Made by a program: the position numbers and the translations under genes. A model generated the notes under the pieces. That model saw only the letters and a list, made by a program, of their open reading frames with translations, was not told where the DNA came from and did no database searches. Positions 21,692 to 63,729 of a stretch of DNA of 64,000 nt are shown piece by piece. Position 1 is the stretch's first letter, and each line of letters starts with the position of its first letter. The DNA is taken from the NCBI GenBank assembly GCA_037440925.1, contig JBBITF010000006.1, positions 1 to 64,000 of the forward strand. The letters are read 5' to 3'. Origin of the DNA: Chloroflexota bacterium. Its GTDB lineage: Bacteria; Chloroflexota; Anaerolineae; Anaerolineales; Villigracilaceae.

Positions 21692-24430
21692 ATGCAAGAT
21701 TTTTTTGGTGCGCGTGATACCTTGAAAACCAGACATGGGACATACGTTTTCTATCGGCTGGATGCGCTCGAAAAGGCCGCTCTGACCACCCTGAAGCGGC
21801 TTCCGTTTTCGATTCGTATCCTGCTCGAAGCGGCTCTGCGCCAATGCAACGAGCGCGAGATCACGCAAGAAGATGTGAAAAATATTGCTGCATGGATGCC
21901 TGCCCCTCCCTCTCCCGCCGGGAAAGGGGAAGGGGTGAGAGTAGGCATTCCCTTCCTGCCCTCGCGGGTGGTGATGCAAGACTTTACCGGCGTGCCGGCG
22001 GTTGTGGATTTGGCTGCCATGCGCGCGGCAGTGGCCCGCCTGGGCGGCGATCCCAAGAAAATCAATCCGCTCGTGCCGGTAGACCTGGTCATTGACCACT
22101 CGGTGCAGGTGGATTTCTTTGCCACCCCCGATGCCCTCCAGCGCAACGCCGAAGTCGAATTTCAGCGCAATCGCGAGCGTTACGAATTTCTTAAGTGGGG
22201 ACAAAAGGCCTTCTCCAACTTCCGGGTTGTCCCGCCGATGACCGGCATCGTTCATCAGGTCAATCTGGAATATCTTGCCAGCGTAGTGGCTGTCCGAGAG
22301 GTGGAAACGCCGCAATCTGGCTCGGAACGGATAGCCTTTCCCGATACGCTGGTCGGTACCGATTCGCATACCACCATGATCAACGGCCTGGGCGTTCTTG
22401 GCTGGGGCGTGGGCGGCATCGAGGCCGAGGCCGTGATGCTCGGCCAGCCCATGGATATGTTGCTGCCAGAGGTGGTGGGCTTCAAACTGTATGGGAAACT
22501 GTCGGAGGGCGTCACTGCGACCGATTTGGTGCTGACCGTTACCCAAATGCTGCGCCAGAAAGGCGTGGTAGGCAAATTCGTCGAATTCTACGGCCCCGGC
22601 CTGGATGGAATGCCGCTGCCCGACCGCGCTACCATTGCCAACATGGCGCCCGAATATGGCGCTACCATAGGCTTTTTCCCCGTAGACAACGAAACTCTGC
22701 GCTATTTGCGTTTGACCGGCCGCCCGGCCGAACAAGTGGAACTGGTGGAAGCCTATTGCCGCGCCCAGGGCTTGTTCCGCGACGCAGATACCCCCGACCC
22801 GCAATTCACCGACACGCTCGAACTAGACCTGGGGGCTGTTGTCCCCTCCCTGGCGGGGCCCAAGCGCCCTCAGGACCGCGTGCCGCTTGCGGCTATGAAA
22901 GAAACCTTCCGGGCGGCGCTCAAAGCCCCGGTCAAAGAACGCGGTTTCGAGTTGAGTCCTGAAGCGTTGCAGCGTCGAGGCAAGATTGGCGTCAACGGCG
23001 GGTCATACTTCATCGGGCATGGGGCCGTCGTGCTTGCCGCCATCACATCTTGTACCAACACCAGCAACCCATCGGTCTTGATTGCAGCCGGGCTGGTGGC
23101 GAAGAAAGCGGTCGAAAAGGGCCTGAGGGTCAAGCCTCACGTCAAGACTTCGCTGGCGCCCGGCTCGCGCGTGGTGACCGAATATCTGAGTCAGGCCGGC
23201 CTGCTGGAGCCGCTGGGGCAATTGGGATTTAATGTAGTGGCGTATGGTTGCACGACCTGTATCGGCAACTCGGGTCCCCTGCCCGGAGAAGTGGCCAAGG
23301 CCGTTTCCAGCGAGGACCTGGTAGCGGCTGCCGTTATTTCGGGCAATCGCAACTTCGAGGGGCGGGTACATCCATTGGTGAAAGCCAACTACCTGGCCTC
23401 GCCGCCGCTGGTGGTGGCCTACGCTTTGGCTGGGACGGTGGATATTGACTTGCTCCATGAGCCGCTTGGAACAGGCGCAGACGGTCAGCCTGTGTACCTG
23501 AAAGACATCTGGCCGACCACGCAAGAAGTGAGCGAGTCGGTGGCTGCCAACGTCAAAGCAGAAATGTTCCGCCAAAAATATGCCGATGTATTCTCTGGCT
23601 CTGAGATGTGGCAAAACGTGGAAGTGAGCGGCGGCGACCTGTACGAGTGGGATGCAGCCTCGACTTACATTCAGCATCCTCCTTTCTTCCAAGATTTGAC
23701 CCTTGAAACGCCCAAAATCAGCGACATTCGGGGCGCGCGCGTCTTGTGCCTGTTTGGAGATTCGATTACCACCGATCACATCTCGCCGGCCGGCTCAATT
23801 GCTCCCGACAGTCCGGCCGGCAAATTCTTGCTGGCTTATGGCGTGCAACAGCGTGACTTCAACTCGTATGGCTCACGACGCGGCAATGACCGTGTGATGG
23901 CGCGCGGCACGTTCGCCAACATCCGCCTGAAGAATCAACTGGTTGCGCCCAAAGAAGGCAATTGGACCAAACACATGCCGTCGGGCGAGGAAATGGCCAT
24001 CTATGATGCGGCTATGAGGTATAAAGAAGAGGGCGTTCCTTGTATCGTCATTGCCGGTAAGGAGTATGGCACCGGCTCCAGCCGCGATTGGGCCGCCAAG
24101 GGCCCTCTACTGCAAGGGGTGAAAGCCGTCATTGCCGAATCGTTCGAGCGCATTCACCGCTCTAACCTGGTCGGCATGGGAATCCTGCCTTTGCAGTTCG
24201 TGGACGGGCAAAACGCCGAATCGCTTGGCTTGCGAGGCGATGAAGTGTACGATATCGAGTGTCTGCACGACGATATGCCGCCGCGTGCGCGGGTCAATGT
24301 GCGTGTACATCGAGCGAACGGTCGCAAAGATATGTTCGAGGCCGAGGCTTTGCTCAATACTGAAGTGGAGGTCAATTATTACCGCAATGGCGGCATTTTA
24401 CATACGGTTTTGAGGCATTTGGTGAAATGA
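21692..24430 (+). CDS. acnA: Aconitate hydratase A
   Basis: AGGAG RBS and ATG 21692. AcnA/IRP-like throughout, with Fe-S cysteines and SGNRNFEGR substrate motif. Small Pro/Gly-rich insertion near residues 70-85. Confidence 0.9.
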
Positions 24431-53738: not shown

Positions 53739-54296
53739 TTAAAGATTTTGAGAATGGGATGGAGGAAGCATCAATACTGCGATGCCGGTCGAGTCGCCGG
53801 TGTTGCGCCAGCGGTGGTAAGCGTCGCTGTTGAAAGCCAGGCTGTCGCCGGGGTTCAGGGTATAGGTTTGTCCGTCCAGTTCCAGTTCAACCTGGCCACA
53901 CAGGCATAAAATCGAGTGCCGGCGAGACGCCAGCGTTTCAGAGGGCGCAGCCGCTTTGGGCGCCGCAATCATACAGCCTGTGGTTTGAGGGGCGGTGGCC
54001 AGCAGTTGGAATGTCTGCCCGGCAATGTCGGCTTTGGCGGTGGCCTCATCTGCCCGCTGTAAGACCACAGCCGGCTTGCAAATTTCCAAAAATAGGGAAC
54101 TGGGCGTTACGCCCAGGGCGTGCGCAATTTTGCACAGGGTTTCGATACTTGGGGACACCTCGCTTCGCTCTACCATGCTGATGGTATTTGCAGACAGGTC
54201 GCACCCCCGCGCCAGTTGTTTGAGCGTCAGGCCATTTGCCTTGCGCAAGTAGCGGATCTTGTTACCTACATTGAGCCAGGTTTCGTGCGTTTTCAT
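53739..54296 (-). CDS. XRE-family HTH transcriptional regulator with C-terminal cupin domain
   Basis: HTH (LTLKQLARGCDLSANTISMVERSEVSPSIETLCKIAHALGV). Cupin-like C-terminus. ATG 54296. Confidence 0.7.
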   Translation of the reverse strand: MKTHETWLNVGNKIRYLRKANGLTLKQLARGCDLSANTISMVERSEVSPSIETLCKIAHALGVTPSSLFLEICKPAVVLQRADEATAKADIAGQTFQLLATAPQTTGCMIAAPKAAAPSETLASRRHSILCLCGQVELELDGQTYTLNPGDSLAFNSDAYHRWRNTGDSTGIAVLMLPPSHSQNL

Positions 54297-54497: not shown

Positions 54498-54652
54498 TGT
54501 ATTTTGGTTGAAATTAAGTGACAAACAACAAAAAAATTGGTTATTTTTATCCCCCCTCCTCGGCAAACTCTACAGCCGCCAGATCAGGCGCTGTTTGCAA
54601 TGGTTTGTAACTATCTTGACAATGTCACATTAAACATTTGTTCTGGTAAATC

Positions 54653-54770
54653 GCCCTCACCCGGCCCTCTCCCGGCGGGAGAGGGGGCAAATCACTTGAA
54701 TTTTCGCGTTATTGCCTCTCCCTTTGGTGGTCGAGCTTGTCGAGACCTAGGAGAGGGTTAGGGTGAGGGC
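54653..54770. repeat. Long-range GC-rich inverted repeat (about 21 bp arms, about 75-bp spacer) with an internal 10-bp-stem hairpin
   Basis: Left arm GCCCTCACCCGGCCCTCTCCC (54653-54673). Right arm GGAGAGGGTTAGGGTGAGGGC (54750-54770). Internal hairpin CCCTCTCCCG-g-CGGGAGAGGG (54665-54685). Confidence 0.6.
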
Positions 54771-54862
54771 CAAACTACCTACCCGTTGATGAAGGATTGC
54801 TAAGCAAAACGCCAAATTTATCCACAGATGATGCAGATTTCGCCGATTTTTTTCTTCAATTG

Positions 54863-55042
54863 TAACTGCCTACCTCTAACATCGGTTTGGTTTTTGGGTG
54901 AGAAAACCATCCACGAATAAACCACGAATGCTCGAATGACGGCGTGATTCGTGTATTCGTGCAGTATTCGTGGACGGTTTGCGCTCGAATATAGGCAGGG
55001 TACGACATCTGCGGATGGTTTCCGAAGCCAGGTAGGCAGTTA
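54863..55042. repeat. MITE-like element: perfect 13-bp terminal inverted repeats flanking about 154 bp that contain a CACGAAT/ATTCGTG repeat hairpin
   Basis: TAACTGCCTACCT (54863-54875) and AGGTAGGCAGTTA (55030-55042) are exact reverse complements. Interior 54911-54973 has CCACGAATA / CCACGAATG / CTCGAATG on one arm and GATTCGTG / TATTCGTG / TATTCGTGG on the other. Confidence 0.55.
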
Positions 55043-55206
55043 CCCGCTTTTTGTGTTTCGGCGGTTGATTGCACAAAAGTCAGGCTAGCAGTCTGTCGGA
55101 GAATACTTGAAAATCGCCCCAGGGGAAGTGCAGGCGCCCGACAGTGTTACTATCGGACAACGAACCGCATGGGGGTTGCGGTGAGCAAGCAGGCGTTCTG
55201 GCGCCG

Positions 55207-55926
55207 TTAGTTTGCTAAATCGAATGTAAATTCCCAGGGGCCGCTCACCGTAAAGAATTCATCGCTGAACACGATTTGCTCGGCCTCTTCCTGACTCATT
55301 GTCTCTGGCTTAGATACGATTTGCATACTTTCAGCGCCATTCACTGTTTGACATTCCAGGGTAATGGCAATGCCGCGTTCGAGAAGCGCCTGTTGAATTT
55401 TGGGCATGTAAATCGAGCAATCTTCCTCTTCGCGTGGATAGGCGGCCAACGCCTGGATGCTGACGGCGACGACGTCGAGGTTGGCGTCTGGCGGGACGTA
55501 GAATTCCAGCATGTCACAGCGCAAACCGGGTTGCCCGTCTGCGCCTGGCTCTTGCAGGCTGATGAGTGTAGTGCCATATTCTTGCACCGTCTGATCGGCA
55601 TATTTCAGGCTGGCTTTCCAAATCGTCCAATCGGAGGCGTCGGGCAGGGTGAAACACACCTCGGCATAGACTTGTTTACCTTCCTGCCAGGCGCGCGTGA
55701 TGTTGACCTGAATGCCTCCTACCGCCTGCGGGGGCGAAATCTCGGCCGCCTCGGCAGTAGGATAGGAGGCTGCAATGAATGGGGTGGCCGAAGGTTGCAT
55801 GACGATGGCCGGTAGGAGGGTCGGGGAGGGTACAGGGGCAGCCGTTTGGGATGCAGCAGTCAACGGCCCGCAGGCCAATGCGGTCAGCAGAATGCCTGCC
55901 GCAGCCAGGAAGAGTTTTTTTTCCAT
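55207..55926 (-). CDS. Hypothetical lipoprotein
   Basis: Signal peptide with lipobox LTALAC|G. 239 aa. No recognised domain. Confidence 0.5.
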   Translation of the reverse strand: MEKKLFLAAAGILLTALACGPLTAASQTAAPVPSPTLLPAIVMQPSATPFIAASYPTAEAAEISPPQAVGGIQVNITRAWQEGKQVYAEVCFTLPDASDWTIWKASLKYADQTVQEYGTTLISLQEPGADGQPGLRCDMLEFYVPPDANLDVVAVSIQALAAYPREEEDCSIYMPKIQQALLERGIAITLECQTVNGAESMQIVSKPETMSQEEAEQIVFSDEFFTVSGPWEFTFDLAN

Positions 55927-62309: not shown

Positions 62310-62369
62310 AATTCTTGTTTTTTGGTCACTGCCTACCCTCGCGCCTATTTTGATGTTGAGAAGAGGCAA

Positions 62370-62457
62370 CGGTTGTAGGACGGTTGTAGGACAGACCTTT
62401 GGTCTGTCCAGGACAGGTCGGAGACCTGTCCTACGGTTGGTTGCGGCTGGAAGCCGC
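62370..62457. repeat. Cluster of a 12-nt tandem direct repeat and three consecutive hairpins
   Basis: CGGTTGTAGGAC x2 (62370-62392). GGACAGACC-ttt-GGTCTGTCC (62389-62409). GGACAGGTC-gga-GACCTGTCC (62411-62431). GCGGCT-gga-AGCCGC (62443-62457). GTAGGAC/GTCCTAC can close the first two hairpins. Confidence 0.6.
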
Positions 62458-62559
62458 GCTATGGTGAGGCTAGGCAGTTATCATTAACCTGAATTTGCTA
62501 TGCATAGGAGGGTGGGGCATCAGAGTATAATTTACATATCCTATTGCCTGGAGGATGAG

Positions 62560-63729
62560 ATGAGCGATCTTGCCTTGTTTCCTTTGACCGATGAACACAA
62601 GATGATTCGCGACACAGCGCGCGATTTTGCCCAAAAAGAAATTGCTCCCATTGCAGCAGAATTCGATGAGAGCGGAGAGTTTCCCAATAAGACCATCCAA
62701 AAGATGGGCGCCATGGGCTTCATGGGCATCGAAGTCCCTGAAGCCTACGGCGGCGCGGGCATGGACACCTTGTCTTATGTGCTGGCGCTGGAGGAAATCT
62801 CCAAAGTGGATGCAGCGCATGGCGTCATCATGTCTGTCAATAATTCTCTCTACTGTCACGGCATTCTCAAATTTGGGACAGAAGAACAGAAGAAGAAATA
62901 TCTACCGCCTGTCGCCTCTGGCCGCAGTATCGGCGCGTATTCGCTCACCGAGCCGATGTCGGGTTCGGATGCCGGCTCGATGCGTACCCGCGCTGTGCGG
63001 GATGGCGATTTTTACATCTTGAATGGACGCAAGTCCTGGGTCACGAGCGGACCGGTGGCCGACTATGTAGTTGTCTTTATGATGACCGATCCGGCCAAGA
63101 AACAAAAGGGCATTAGCGCCTTCATCGTCGAAGCCAATACGCCCGGCTTTGTGCGCGGCAAGAAAGAGCCTAAACTCGGCATCCGCGCCTCGGCTACCAG
63201 CGAATTGGTCTTCGAGGATTGCCGCGTGCCAGTCGAAAACCGCTTGGGCGAGGAAGGCGAAGGCTTCAAAATTGCGATGACGGTGTTGGATGTGGGGCGC
63301 ATTGGCATTGCGGCGCAAGCGTTGGGCATTGCCGAGGCCGCGTATGAGGCTGCCCTGGCTTACGCCCGCGAGCGCGAGGCTTTTGGTCAGAAGATCGGCG
63401 AATTTCAGGGTATTTCTTTCAAATTAGCCGATATGAAGACGCGCATCGAGGCCTCCCGCCTGCTGATTTACAATGCCGCCATGGCTAAAGAGAGGTCCAA
63501 GACAAGCGGTGAACGCTTCACACTTCAATCCTCGACGGCAAAATTGTTTGCCTCCGAGACGGCCATGTTCTGCGCCCATGCCGCCGTCCAGATTCACGGC
63601 GGCATCGGCTACAGCAAGGAATACCCCGTCGAACGCTACTTCCGCGACGCTAAGATTACCGAAATCTACGAAGGCACCAGCGAGATTCAACGCCTGGTCA
63701 TCAGCCGCAGCGAATTGGGATTGAAATAG
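62560..63729 (+). CDS. Acyl-CoA dehydrogenase (short/butyryl-CoA type)
   Basis: GGAGGA RBS and ATG 62560. Canonical ACAD N-terminal, middle and C-terminal domains, with catalytic Glu in YEGTSEIQ. Confidence 0.9.
   Translation: MSDLALFPLTDEHKMIRDTARDFAQKEIAPIAAEFDESGEFPNKTIQKMGAMGFMGIEVPEAYGGAGMDTLSYVLALEEISKVDAAHGVIMSVNNSLYCHGILKFGTEEQKKKYLPPVASGRSIGAYSLTEPMSGSDAGSMRTRAVRDGDFYILNGRKSWVTSGPVADYVVVFMMTDPAKKQKGISAFIVEANTPGFVRGKKEPKLGIRASATSELVFEDCRVPVENRLGEEGEGFKIAMTVLDVGRIGIAAQALGIAEAAYEAALAYAREREAFGQKIGEFQGISFKLADMKTRIEASRLLIYNAAMAKERSKTSGERFTLQSSTAKLFASETAMFCAHAAVQIHGGIGYSKEYPVERYFRDAKITEIYEGTSEIQRLVISRSELGLK

What the first reader, a model, noticed from the sequence alone, without database searches (positions are those of the whole stretch)
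54863..55042. 180-bp element with perfect 13-bp terminal inverted repeats enclosing a CACGAAT/ATTCGTG repeat hairpin (MITE-like or structured ncRNA)
TAACTGCCTACCT and its exact reverse complement lie 154 bp apart. The interior holds three direct CACGAAT-type repeats spaced about 10-11 nt, mirrored by three ATTCGTG repeats. Together these form a long imperfect hairpin (54911-54973). No protein-coding potential. It lies between the XRE-cupin regulator of the second DsrMK-like operon and a lipoprotein gene. It could be a miniature inverted-repeat element, an operator array, or a small RNA.
Basis: seen in the sequence. Interest (0 to 1): 0.55.

Follow-up and report, generated by a model that had tools for sequence, protein, structure and literature searches.

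The report
Miniature transposon carrying a widespread hairpin
The 182-bp palindromic element is a diverged copy of a small non-coding transposon (MITE) found in Anaerolineales bacteria; this is an ordinary kind of selfish DNA, but its central hairpin belongs to a little-known class of repeat hairpins found in many bacterial phyla.

Summary
A perfect 14-bp inverted repeat (GTAACTGCCTACCT, 54862-54875 / 55030-55043) encloses a 77-nt imperfect hairpin (54904-54980) built of CACGAAT and ATTCGTG units.

It is not a conserved regulator site or a known RNA. The closest syntenic relatives lack it, Rfam has no match, and its relatives show no covariation.

It belongs to a family of about 150-nt elements in Anaerolineales and Chloroflexota metagenomes. 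These share the ends GTAAYTRCCTACC...GGTAGGYWGTTAC, the hairpin and the right arm. Similarity stops exactly at the inverted repeats. Of 26 candidate end pairings, 17 are flanked by 8-bp target-site duplications (14 perfect). Nested and tandem insertions occur, and several contigs carry two copies. A second element with the same type of ends lies in the window at 62325-62481.

Ends starting GTAACT plus 8-bp duplications point to an IS66-family (ISBst12-like) transposase acting in trans. No such gene was found. The window copy has no duplication and looks old or rearranged.

The hairpin core is separately a member of a very widespread class of heptamer-repeat hairpins in Bacteroidota, Chloroflexota, Planctomycetota, Acidobacteriota and others. 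The same heptamers flank GxxExxY nuclease genes. I found no published description of this class.

The parts
54862..55043 (-). The whole 182-bp MITE copy. The minus strand corresponds to the consensus orientation of the family (hairpin followed by GGTTTTCTCA).
   Evidence: Alignment A3 with 17 family members; alignment of 24 copies; blastn.
54862..54875 (.). Terminal inverted repeat GTAACTGCCTACCT. The family consensus is GTAAYTRCCTACC.
55030..55043 (.). Terminal inverted repeat AGGTAGGCAGTTAC, the exact complement of 54862-54875.
54904..54980 (.). Central imperfect hairpin: 38-nt arms, 82% complementary, 1-nt gap. It is a member of the widespread CACGAAT/ATTCGTG heptamer-repeat hairpin class.
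   Evidence: class defined.
54912..54937 (+). 5' arm units CACGAAT (54912), CACGAAT (54923) and CTCGAAT (54931).
54947..54972 (+). 3' arm units ATTCGTG, three copies (54947, 54955, 54966).
54991..55003 (.). Internal degenerate copy of the end sequence (ATAGGCAGGGTAC, compare GGTAGGCAGTTAC). Together with the next 26 nt it makes the extra roughly 32 nt that this copy has over the family consensus.
   Evidence: sequence; I19; extra block in A3.
54771..54783 (.). External degenerate end-like sequence CAAACTACCTACC, 78 nt outside the left end. It may be the remnant of another copy.
   Evidence: D3, I8.
54823..54847 (+). Array of three heptamer units (CACAGAT, TGCAGAT, CGCCGAT) just outside the element. 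It is complementary to 55003-55016 inside it.
   Evidence: (I9, I13).
62325..62481 (.). Second 157-bp element with the same type of ends (GTCACTGCCTACC ... GGCTAGGCAGTTAT) but a different interior (GGTTGTAGGAC repeats and two small hairpins). No target duplication.

Best explanation
The element is a non-autonomous DNA transposon (MITE) of a family that lives in Anaerolineales and other Chloroflexota.

Shown: the family has 13-14-bp terminal inverted repeats starting GTAA, a length of about 150 nt, no coding capacity and sharp boundaries. Insertion duplicates 8 bp of target.

Inferred: a DDE transposase made elsewhere in the genome binds the two ends, excises or copies the element and inserts it with staggered cuts 8 bp apart. 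This enzyme is most likely of the IS66 family (ISBst12-like).

The window copy is a diverged member. Its ends are perfect. It carries about 32 extra nt, an extra internal end-like sequence and no target duplication. It has probably been rearranged since insertion, by recombination between copies or by neighbouring insertions, and may no longer be mobile.

It sits in a 910-bp intergenic region that collects repeats. It lies well outside the conserved promoter block of the regulator operon, so a regulatory role is not indicated.

Its central hairpin is a module that also exists on its own in many phyla. The MITE family carries it as cargo.
For: - **Family and boundaries.** blastn and MAFFT recover 24 near-full-length relatives. 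Similarity begins and ends exactly at the inverted repeats. The window copy aligns over its whole length in A3.
- **Target duplications.** Of 26 candidate end pairings, 14 have perfect and 3 have 7/8 8-bp flanking duplications of unrelated sequence. The offset control gives at most 4/8.
- **Transposition signatures.** A nested insertion (L136) and tandem insertions (L243) occur. L222, L172, L135, L206 and L005 each carry two copies.
- **Independent insertion nearby.** L005, a genus-level relative, has a copy with ends GTAACTACCTACC and duplication CAGGCTGT. It lies 9 nt downstream of the orthologous lipoprotein gene, at another position in the same intergenic region.
- **Second window element.** It has related ends, at 62325-62481.
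- **Absence at the orthologous site.** The syntenic loci L001-L003 lack it, although the promoter block is conserved.
- **Genomic setting.** Copies are intergenic and lie in both orientations.
- **Transposase family.** ISDge4 (IS66 family, ISBst12 group) has ends GTAACTGCTCAGCA and an 8-bp duplication (PMC12898284). Its first 8 nt are identical to the window end. Other IS66 ends start GTAA (PMC12888890). ISGka4 has ends starting GTAACTAT.
Against: - The window copy has no target duplication (4/8).
- The exact pair of ends with 139-169 nt between them was not found in 596 Gb of genomes or in the JGI metagenomes. The source genome itself is not in any collection, so copy number in this genome is unknown beyond the two elements in the window.
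- No autonomous element was found. There is no pair of GTAA ends with a duplication 1-3.6 kb apart in 1.67 Mb of fetched loci, and no tblastn hit to an IS66-like transposase there.
- The left arm of the window copy resembles the family only at the end sequence.
- ISLre2-type elements have similar ends, so the transposase family is not settled.
Confidence: 0.8

Rival explanations
1. The mobile or functional unit is the heptamer-repeat hairpin itself. On this view it is a stand-alone palindromic repeat spread by another mechanism, possibly linked to GxxExxY nuclease cassettes, and the inverted-repeat shell is secondary.
For: - Most of the 201 hairpins found share nothing beyond the hairpin with any other.
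- The class occurs in many phyla without these ends.
- Elements with the same ends can have other interiors: L005, L243b and window 62325-62481.
- GxxExxY genes are flanked by the same heptamers.
Against: In the Anaerolineales family the target duplications lie outside the inverted repeats, not around the hairpin. That unit therefore moved as a whole. No boundary or duplication has been defined for solo hairpins, and no mechanism is known.
Confidence: 0.12
2. The hairpin has been co-opted as a transcription terminator, insulator or mRNA-stabilising 3' structure for the lipoprotein-like gene upstream. This is compatible with a MITE origin.
For: - It lies 163 nt downstream of that gene's stop codon and on the path to the regulator operon.
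- Hairpins of the class lie nearer to the upstream gene's 3' end than to the next start (median 46 versus 111 nt; 43 versus 26 cases).
- They are about twice as frequent between convergent genes as between divergent genes.
Against: - No U-tract follows the full hairpin on either strand. Only a partial sub-hairpin was flagged.
- G-U versus A-C asymmetry shows no preference for the transcribed strand (36 versus 33).
- The closest relatives do without it.
Confidence: 0.1
3. It is a structured non-coding RNA, either an sRNA or a cis-regulatory leader of the XRE-cupin/DsrMK-like operon.
For: Folding is strong (z about -7). In the family orientation several conserved G-U pairs exist that would be A-C mismatches on the other strand.
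Against: - No Rfam match at gathering score or at E-value up to 10.
- RNAalifold gives a covariation term of +0.32, with only 5 of 42 pairs showing any compensatory change.
- Copies lie in both orientations next to unrelated genes.
- Target-site duplications flank the copies.
- The element is absent from syntenic relatives.
Confidence: 0.04
4. It is an operator array: tandem CACGAAT sites on one face of the helix, bound by the neighbouring XRE-cupin regulator.
For: Repeats spaced 8-11 bp in inverted arrangement, in the intergenic region upstream of a regulator gene.
Against: - It lies 565 bp from the start codon and beyond other repeats.
- L001-L003 have the same regulator, the same operon and a strongly conserved 250-bp promoter block, but not the element.
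- The same heptamer hairpin occurs in hundreds of unrelated contexts and phyla.
Confidence: 0.02

Closest known systems
Bacterial MITEs (for example the Correia element of Neisseria, ERIC/IRU, RUP, MITEAba12 (PMC6382973) and the Coxiella MITEs (PMC5896051))
   Same: Short, non-coding and intergenic. Terminal inverted repeats, target-site duplications, many dispersed copies, a highly palindromic interior, and mobilisation in trans by an IS transposase.
   Different: The ends and interior are unrelated in sequence to those families. This family is in Chloroflexota. Its core is a hairpin of tandem heptamers that also exists independently in other phyla. No partner IS has been identified.
IS66 family, ISBst12 group (for example ISDge4 of Deinococcus geothermalis, PMC12898284)
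   Same: Ends begin GTAA. That IS66 ends generally begin GTAA and give 8-9-bp duplications is my recollection of ISfinder. ISDge4's end GTAACTGCTCAGCA shares its first 8 nt with the window end GTAACTGCCTACCT. ISDge4 gives an 8-bp direct repeat.
   Different: The element has no transposase gene, and none with matching ends was found. Beyond position 8 the ends differ. ISLre2-type ISGka4 also has GTAACTAT ends but makes 9-bp repeats.
REP / REPIN elements mobilised by RAYT transposases
   Same: Short intergenic palindromes that are very abundant, often lie near gene 3' ends, and occur singly, in inverted pairs and in clusters.
   Different: REPs are species-specific and carry a 5' GTAG. The heptamer hairpins share the same unit across phyla and are built of 2-4 tandem units per arm. 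No RAYT-like gene recurred near them. The Anaerolineales family has DDE-type inverted repeats and target duplications, which REPINs lack.
23S rRNA intervening sequences with an ORF in the loop (for example the Coxiella IVS, PMC4990558)
   Same: A small selfish ORF bracketed by inverted repeats that form a long stem. This resembles GxxExxY genes bracketed by heptamer arrays.
   Different: IVSs sit in rRNA helices and encode S23p-type proteins. The cassettes seen here are intergenic and encode a PD-(D/E)XK-fold GxxExxY protein. The window element has no ORF.

Membership tests
MITE (miniature inverted-repeat transposable element) | Short (under about 500 bp) with no coding capacity | tested here: met
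   182 bp. The ORFs of 72, 66 and 45 aa look spurious, and the 72-aa one has no homologue in 5.8 billion proteins.
MITE (miniature inverted-repeat transposable element) | Terminal inverted repeats that mark the limits of similarity between copies | tested here: met
   Perfect 14-bp repeats. In 24 relatives the similarity starts and stops at GTAAYTRCCTACC / GGTAGGYWGTTAC.
MITE (miniature inverted-repeat transposable element) | Target-site duplication flanking the copy | tested here: inconclusive
   The family meets it: 14 perfect and 3 7/8 8-bp duplications among 26 candidate end pairings, against a control maximum of 4/8. The window copy does not: CTTCAATT versus CCGCTTTT, 4/8.
MITE (miniature inverted-repeat transposable element) | Multiple dispersed copies in one genome | tested here: inconclusive
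   There are two elements with related ends within this 64-kb window. Relatives carry two copies per contig (L222, L172, L135, L206, L005, L136, L243). The rest of the source genome is not available.
MITE (miniature inverted-repeat transposable element) | Presence/absence polymorphism at orthologous sites | tested here: inconclusive
   The element is absent from syntenic L001-L003, and it is inserted at a different position in L005. The surrounding distal intergenic DNA is too diverged to show a clean empty site.
MITE (miniature inverted-repeat transposable element) | Cognate autonomous IS with the same ends | tested here: not met
   None in the window or in 1.67 Mb of fetched loci. A genome-wide search was not possible.
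IS66 family / ISBst12 group derivative | Ends begin 5'-GTAA | tested here: met
   GTAACTGCCTACCT in the window and GTAAYTRCCTACC in the family. Compare IS66 ends GTAAGCG.., GTAACCG.. and GTAACTGC...
IS66 family / ISBst12 group derivative | 8-bp target duplication | tested here: met
   8 bp in the family and not 9, for example L086 GGTTTATT. ISDge4 gives 8 bp. ISLre2-type ISGka4 gives 9 bp.
IS66 family / ISBst12 group derivative | Mobilised by a DDE_Tnp_IS66 transposase that recognises these ends | not testable with these tools
   No such gene is in the window or the fetched loci. This needs the whole genome or an experiment.
Rfam RNA families | Match to a covariance model at the gathering score | tested here: not met
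   No match in the window at gathering score, and none at E-value up to 10 beyond chance-level hits. No family covers the hairpins in 18 other loci.
Intrinsic terminator | GC-rich hairpin followed directly by a U-tract on the transcribed strand | tested here: not met
   Only a 9-pair sub-hairpin followed by GTTTTCTC was flagged on the minus strand. The Ts are part of the full stem.
REP/REPIN-RAYT | Conserved 5' GTAG and an associated RAYT (Y1 transposase) gene | tested here: not met
   There is no GTAG motif at the hairpin base. No recurrent transposase-like protein cluster appears among 1233 ORFs from 240 loci.
Heptamer-repeat hairpin class (defined here) | Two to four tandem CACGAAT-type units (period 8-11) on the 5' arm, mirrored by ATTCGTG units on the 3' arm | tested here: met
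   The window hairpin at 54904-54980 has 3 + 3 units.

The most novel reading that the evidence does not exclude
The CACGAAT/ATTCGTG hairpin at the core of the element may be the ORF-less form, or the landing structure, of a pan-bacterial selfish cassette. The full form of that cassette encodes the uncharacterised GxxExxY PD-(D/E)XK-fold protein (TIGR04256 / PF13366). On this reading, hairpins made of tandem heptamers are what that nuclease recognises or uses to spread. Solo hairpins in Bacteroidota, Chloroflexota, Planctomycetota, Acidobacteriota, Verrucomicrobiota and others are its non-autonomous derivatives. The Anaerolineales MITE has captured one. The evidence shows co-location only. It shows neither mobility of the hairpins nor any activity of the protein.
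Probability: 0.25. Interest if true: 0.7.

Novelty: new member of a known kind. Interest (0 to 1): 0.35.

Why it matters
For this window the result is mainly a clean-up. The palindrome is selfish DNA, not a regulator site or RNA gene of the DsrMK-like operon, and should be annotated as a repeat.

The MITE family itself appears to be undescribed. It is a useful marker of transposon activity and insertion polymorphism in Anaerolineales genomes, which are mostly known as MAGs. Such repeats break assemblies and create spurious ORFs.

The wider lead is the hairpin class. The same heptamer unit builds hairpins in many phyla and brackets GxxExxY genes, whose function is unknown. If that link is causal, it would give a first handle on a very large protein family and on an unrecognised type of mobile hairpin.

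Tried and rejected
- **Exact end-pair scan.** ACTGCCTACCT N139-169 AGGTAGGCAGT gave no hit in genome contigs or metagenome contigs. This also showed that the source genome is not in those collections.
- **Source contig look-up.** Three window proteins were not on record.
- **Spurious-ORF search.** The 72-aa ORF across the element was searched for other copies that might have been called as genes. Nothing was found.
- **Rfam.** Searched at gathering score and at permissive E-value on the window, and at gathering score on 18 hairpin loci. Nothing relevant.
- **Plasmid and phage records.** blastn of the element gave no match.
- **Autonomous IS.** I looked for ends 1-3.6 kb apart with a duplication and ran tblastn with an IS66-like transposase. 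Nothing was found.
- **RNA-level selection.** Covariation was nil. G-U strand asymmetry relative to gene direction was 36 versus 33.
- **Nested-insertion model for the window copy.** An inner element at 54862-55003 inside an outer one at 54771-55043 would explain the extra end-like sequences. Neither pairing has a target duplication, so the history stays unresolved.
- **Rejected resemblances (from memory and by inspection of the sequence; no tool was run for these).** DnaA-box, parS, attC and tRNA T-loop similarities to the heptamer were considered and rejected as superficial.
- **Literature.** Searches for the heptamer, for peptide-like translations of it, and for GxxExxY found no description of the hairpin class.

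Full report
**1. The observation**

The sequence is as described, with small corrections. GTAACTGCCTACCT (54862-54875) and its exact reverse complement (55030-55043) are 14 bp long and 154 nt apart. The 14-mer with up to two mismatches occurs three times in the window against 0.08 expected.

Between the repeats lies an imperfect hairpin with 38-nt arms (54904-54941 and 54943-54980, 82% complementary). The 5' arm holds CACGAAT, CACGAAT and CTCGAAT. The 3' arm holds three ATTCGTG. Spacings are 11 and 8 nt, then 8 and 11 nt. Both strands fold far better than shuffled controls (z = -7.5 and -7.1).

**2. Context**

All neighbouring genes are on the minus strand:
- a lipoprotein-like gene (55207-55926, no Pfam domain);
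- a 910-bp intergenic region;
- an XRE-cupin regulator (53739-54296);
- a CCG/Fer4 protein and a NarI-like membrane protein.

Protein homologues place the window in Anaerolineales (Chloroflexota). The window's own proteins are not on record in the large assembly collection.

**3. The orthologous site**

Three loci whose lipoprotein homologue is 90% identical are fully syntenic (L001-L003). In the alignment, the roughly 250 bp next to the regulator (window 54297 to about 54552) are almost invariant. This block includes a promoter-like TTGACG-17-TAGATT.

The distal part, including the element, has no counterpart. The relatives carry a different repeat there. A conserved operator or leader RNA is therefore unlikely. 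This stretch appears to be a dump for repeats. In the window it also holds CCCTCTCCC/GGGAGAGGG palindromes.

**4. Looking for copies**

No further copy of the whole element is in the window. The exact end pair was not found in 596 Gb of genomes or in the JGI metagenomes. The spurious 72-aa ORF has no homologue.

By my own estimate, about 50 chance matches would be expected over the whole 596-Gb collection. The limit was reached part-way through the scan, so the true total is higher. About 40% of the listed loci match on both strands at the same place, which requires 28 specified bases and is far beyond chance.

A stricter 26-base pattern (GTCCACGAAT..CACGAAT..ATTCGTGGA) again hit the limit of 120 loci in the metagenomes.

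**5. The family and its transposon signatures**

Among the metagenome hits and one Anaerolineales MAG (L086), 24 near-full-length relatives of one ~150-nt element were found. The consensus is:

GTAATTACCTACC - AWAGGCTCTAYTTGGCAGGGCAGACC - [hairpin] - GGTTTTCTCAGCAAATYATCAACACGACTTGTGATGGTAGGTTGTTAC

In the alignment, similarity begins and ends exactly at the inverted repeats, and the flanks are unrelated. The minus strand of the window element aligns over its whole length: ends, hairpin, GGTTTTCTCA and right arm. It has about 32 extra nt in the left arm.

Of 26 candidate end pairings, 14 have perfect and 3 have 7/8 8-bp direct duplications of arbitrary sequence immediately outside the ends. 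Examples are GGTTTATT, GCTACGTT, GTATTTTT, GAATAAGC (L183, read on the strand of the family consensus) and CAGGCTGT. An offset control never exceeds 4/8. Several of the pairings without a duplication are mis-pairs inside nested or tandem copies.

Other signatures of DDE transposition are present:
- one copy is inserted into another (L136);
- L243 holds a tandem pair;
- five contigs hold two copies.

L005 is a relative whose lipoprotein homologue is 77% identical. It carries a copy with ends GTAACTACCTACC and duplication CAGGCTGT only 9 nt after that gene. This is an independent insertion into the same intergenic region.

The window has a second 157-bp element with related ends at 62325-62481 (GTCACTGCCTACC ... 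GGCTAGGCAGTTAT). Its interior is different. Elements with these ends but other interiors also exist in L005 and L243. The ends define the family, and the hairpin is cargo.

**6. Which transposase**

Ends beginning GTAA with 8-9-bp duplications are the ISfinder signature of the IS66 family. That general statement is from my own knowledge.

Evidence seen here:
- ISDge4 (IS66 family, ISBst12 group) has ends GTAACTGCTCAGCA / GTGACTACTCAGCA and an 8-bp repeat (PMC12898284). Its first eight bases equal the window's.
- Other IS66 ends read GTAAGCG.. and GTAACCG.. (PMC12888890).
- The ISGka4 copy on pHTA426 has GTAACTATTCAGCCC but makes 9-bp repeats (PMC8024623).

No full-length partner was found in the window or in 1.67 Mb of fetched loci. 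I therefore put the IS66/ISBst12 assignment at about 0.5, and the MITE call at about 0.8-0.85.

**7. The RNA alternative**

Rfam has nothing for the window or for 18 other hairpin loci.

RNAalifold on the family gives a covariation term of +0.32 kcal/mol. Only 5 of 42 pairs show any double change, and most columns are invariant. This is what a recently amplified repeat looks like.

Copies are intergenic but lie in both orientations next to unrelated genes.

**8. The hairpin as a separate, widespread module**

In 201 hairpins located in the fetched loci, most share nothing beyond the hairpin with any other. Only a few groups share flanks: the MITE family, a tandem array (L209 and L182), and some small groups with other inverted repeats such as GGTGATTACCCATA...TGTGGGTAATCACC.

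The hosts include Flavobacterium, Aequorivita, Ferruginibacter, Bacteroidales, Caldilineaceae, Chloroflexia, Phycisphaerae, Tepidisphaerales, Verrucomicrobiota, Pyrinomonadaceae, Blastocatellia and Hydrogenedentota. Some are isolates with complete genomes.

Each arm has 2-4 units with period 8-11. Variant units such as CACTAAT, CACAAAT and CACGGAT occur.

The hairpins are overwhelmingly intergenic. They lie closer to the upstream gene's 3' end than to the next start (median 46 versus 111 nt). They are about twice as common between convergent genes as between divergent genes. G-U asymmetry shows no preference for the transcribed strand (36 versus 33).

**9. Link to GxxExxY genes**

The only protein family that recurs right next to the hairpins is GxxExxY (TIGR04256, PF13366).

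In the hairpin-seeded loci, the gene is bracketed in two ways:
- by two complete hairpins (L193, L056, L103);
- by inverted arrays, including arrays of other heptamers that the search pattern could not have selected (L084 with CGCAGAT, L133 with CACAGAC).

In loci found from the protein alone:
- Three of eight plasmid or chromid loci have inverted flanks: multi-unit heptamer arrays in L252 and L253, and a single CACGGAT/ATCCGTG unit in L249. Others have arrays on one side only or direct repeats.
- All of the metagenome or MAG loci examined, from Chloroflexota, Lentisphaeria, Sumerlaeia, Spirochaetota and Hydrogenedentota, have CNCGAAT arrays directly before the conserved ORF core. Most also have a complete hairpin after it.
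- Units are three times denser in the 150-nt flanks than in the rest of these loci (14.8 versus 4.9 per kb).

The searchable literature calls the family 'unknown' (PMC3424549), and I found no description of the hairpins. The window has no GxxExxY gene.

This is co-location, not proof of mechanism. It is the basis of the 'novel case'.

**10. Peculiarities of the window copy**

It has perfect ends but no duplication (CTTCAATT versus CCGCTTTT). An extra end-like sequence lies inside it (54991-55003) and another lies 78 nt outside (54771-54783). A short array of CACAGAT-type units outside the element (54823-54847) pairs with 55003-55016 inside it.

This suggests a composite history: adjacent or nested insertions, or recombination between copies. 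No pairing of ends restores a duplication, so the history is unresolved.

**11. Mechanism**

Shown: the family has inverted repeats, sharp limits, 8-bp duplications, nested and multiple copies, and no coding capacity.

Inferred: a DDE transposase supplied in trans binds the ends and inserts the element with 8-bp staggered cuts. The window copy is an old or rearranged insertion with no demonstrated effect on its neighbours. A secondary role of the hairpin as a 3' structure cannot be excluded, but the sequence does not support it: no U-tract follows the hairpin.

**12. Verdict**

The operator and sRNA options are not.

The element is a new member of a known kind. Interest for the finding itself is modest. 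The hairpin class and its link to GxxExxY genes deserve a separate look.

Noticed in passing
window 62325-62481: A second 157-bp element with ends of the same family (GTCACTGCCTACC ... GGCTAGGCAGTTAT). Its interior is different (two GGTTGTAGGAC repeats and two small hairpins) and it has no target duplication. It lies upstream of ORF 62500-63729.
   Followed up: partly
window 54650-54770 and 21908-21947: REP-like palindromes built of CCCTCACCC/CCCTCTCCC and GGGAGAGGG/GGGTGAGGG. They form another dispersed repeat family in the same intergenic region, with a related copy 33 kb away.
   Followed up: no
window 54771-54783, 54823-54847, 54991-55003: Two degenerate extra copies of the end sequence, plus a CACAGAT/TGCAGAT/CGCCGAT heptamer array outside the element that is complementary to 55003-55016 inside it. 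Together they suggest a composite or rearranged insertion history.
   Followed up: partly
L193 3124-3650; L056 3046-3577; L084 870-1321; L252, L253, L257-L263: GxxExxY genes (TIGR04256 / PF13366, function unknown) are bracketed by hairpins or inverted arrays of CACGAAT-type heptamers in at least five phyla. Units are three times denser in their 150-nt flanks than elsewhere in the loci.
   Followed up: partly
L257, L259, L263-L265: Closely related GxxExxY genes (70-76% identity across Chloroflexota, Sumerlaeia and Hydrogenedentota) sit between an ORF with an MmeI_Mtase domain and an ORF with an Eco57I domain. They look as if they were inserted into, or carried within, a type IIG/IIL restriction-modification gene.
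   Followed up: no
L209 1-790 (also L182 1079-1230): A tandem array of at least eight CACGAAT hairpins with a period of about 95 nt, each separated by a conserved 24-nt linker. It is a satellite-like form of the hairpin.
   Followed up: no
L139, L140, L204, L211: One subfamily of the hairpin starts directly after AAGGAGAGTTGTGATG, which looks like a ribosome-binding site plus a start codon. An open frame runs through the hairpin. It could be a 5' leader or an N-terminal extension of a conserved gene.
   Followed up: no
L001 4780-5470 (also L002, L003): At the position orthologous to the window element, the closest relatives carry a different repeat (..TGTCATTGCGAGC...GCAATCCCC..). Gene callers have called it as a 110-159-aa ORF.
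   Followed up: no
L208, L228, L236, L244, L138; L068, L150: Other hairpin-bearing elements have different outer inverted repeats (GGTGATTACCCATA...TGTGGGTAATCACC; ACAGCGCAAGGTT...ACTTTGCGCTGT). They may be further MITE families built around the same hairpin.
   Followed up: no
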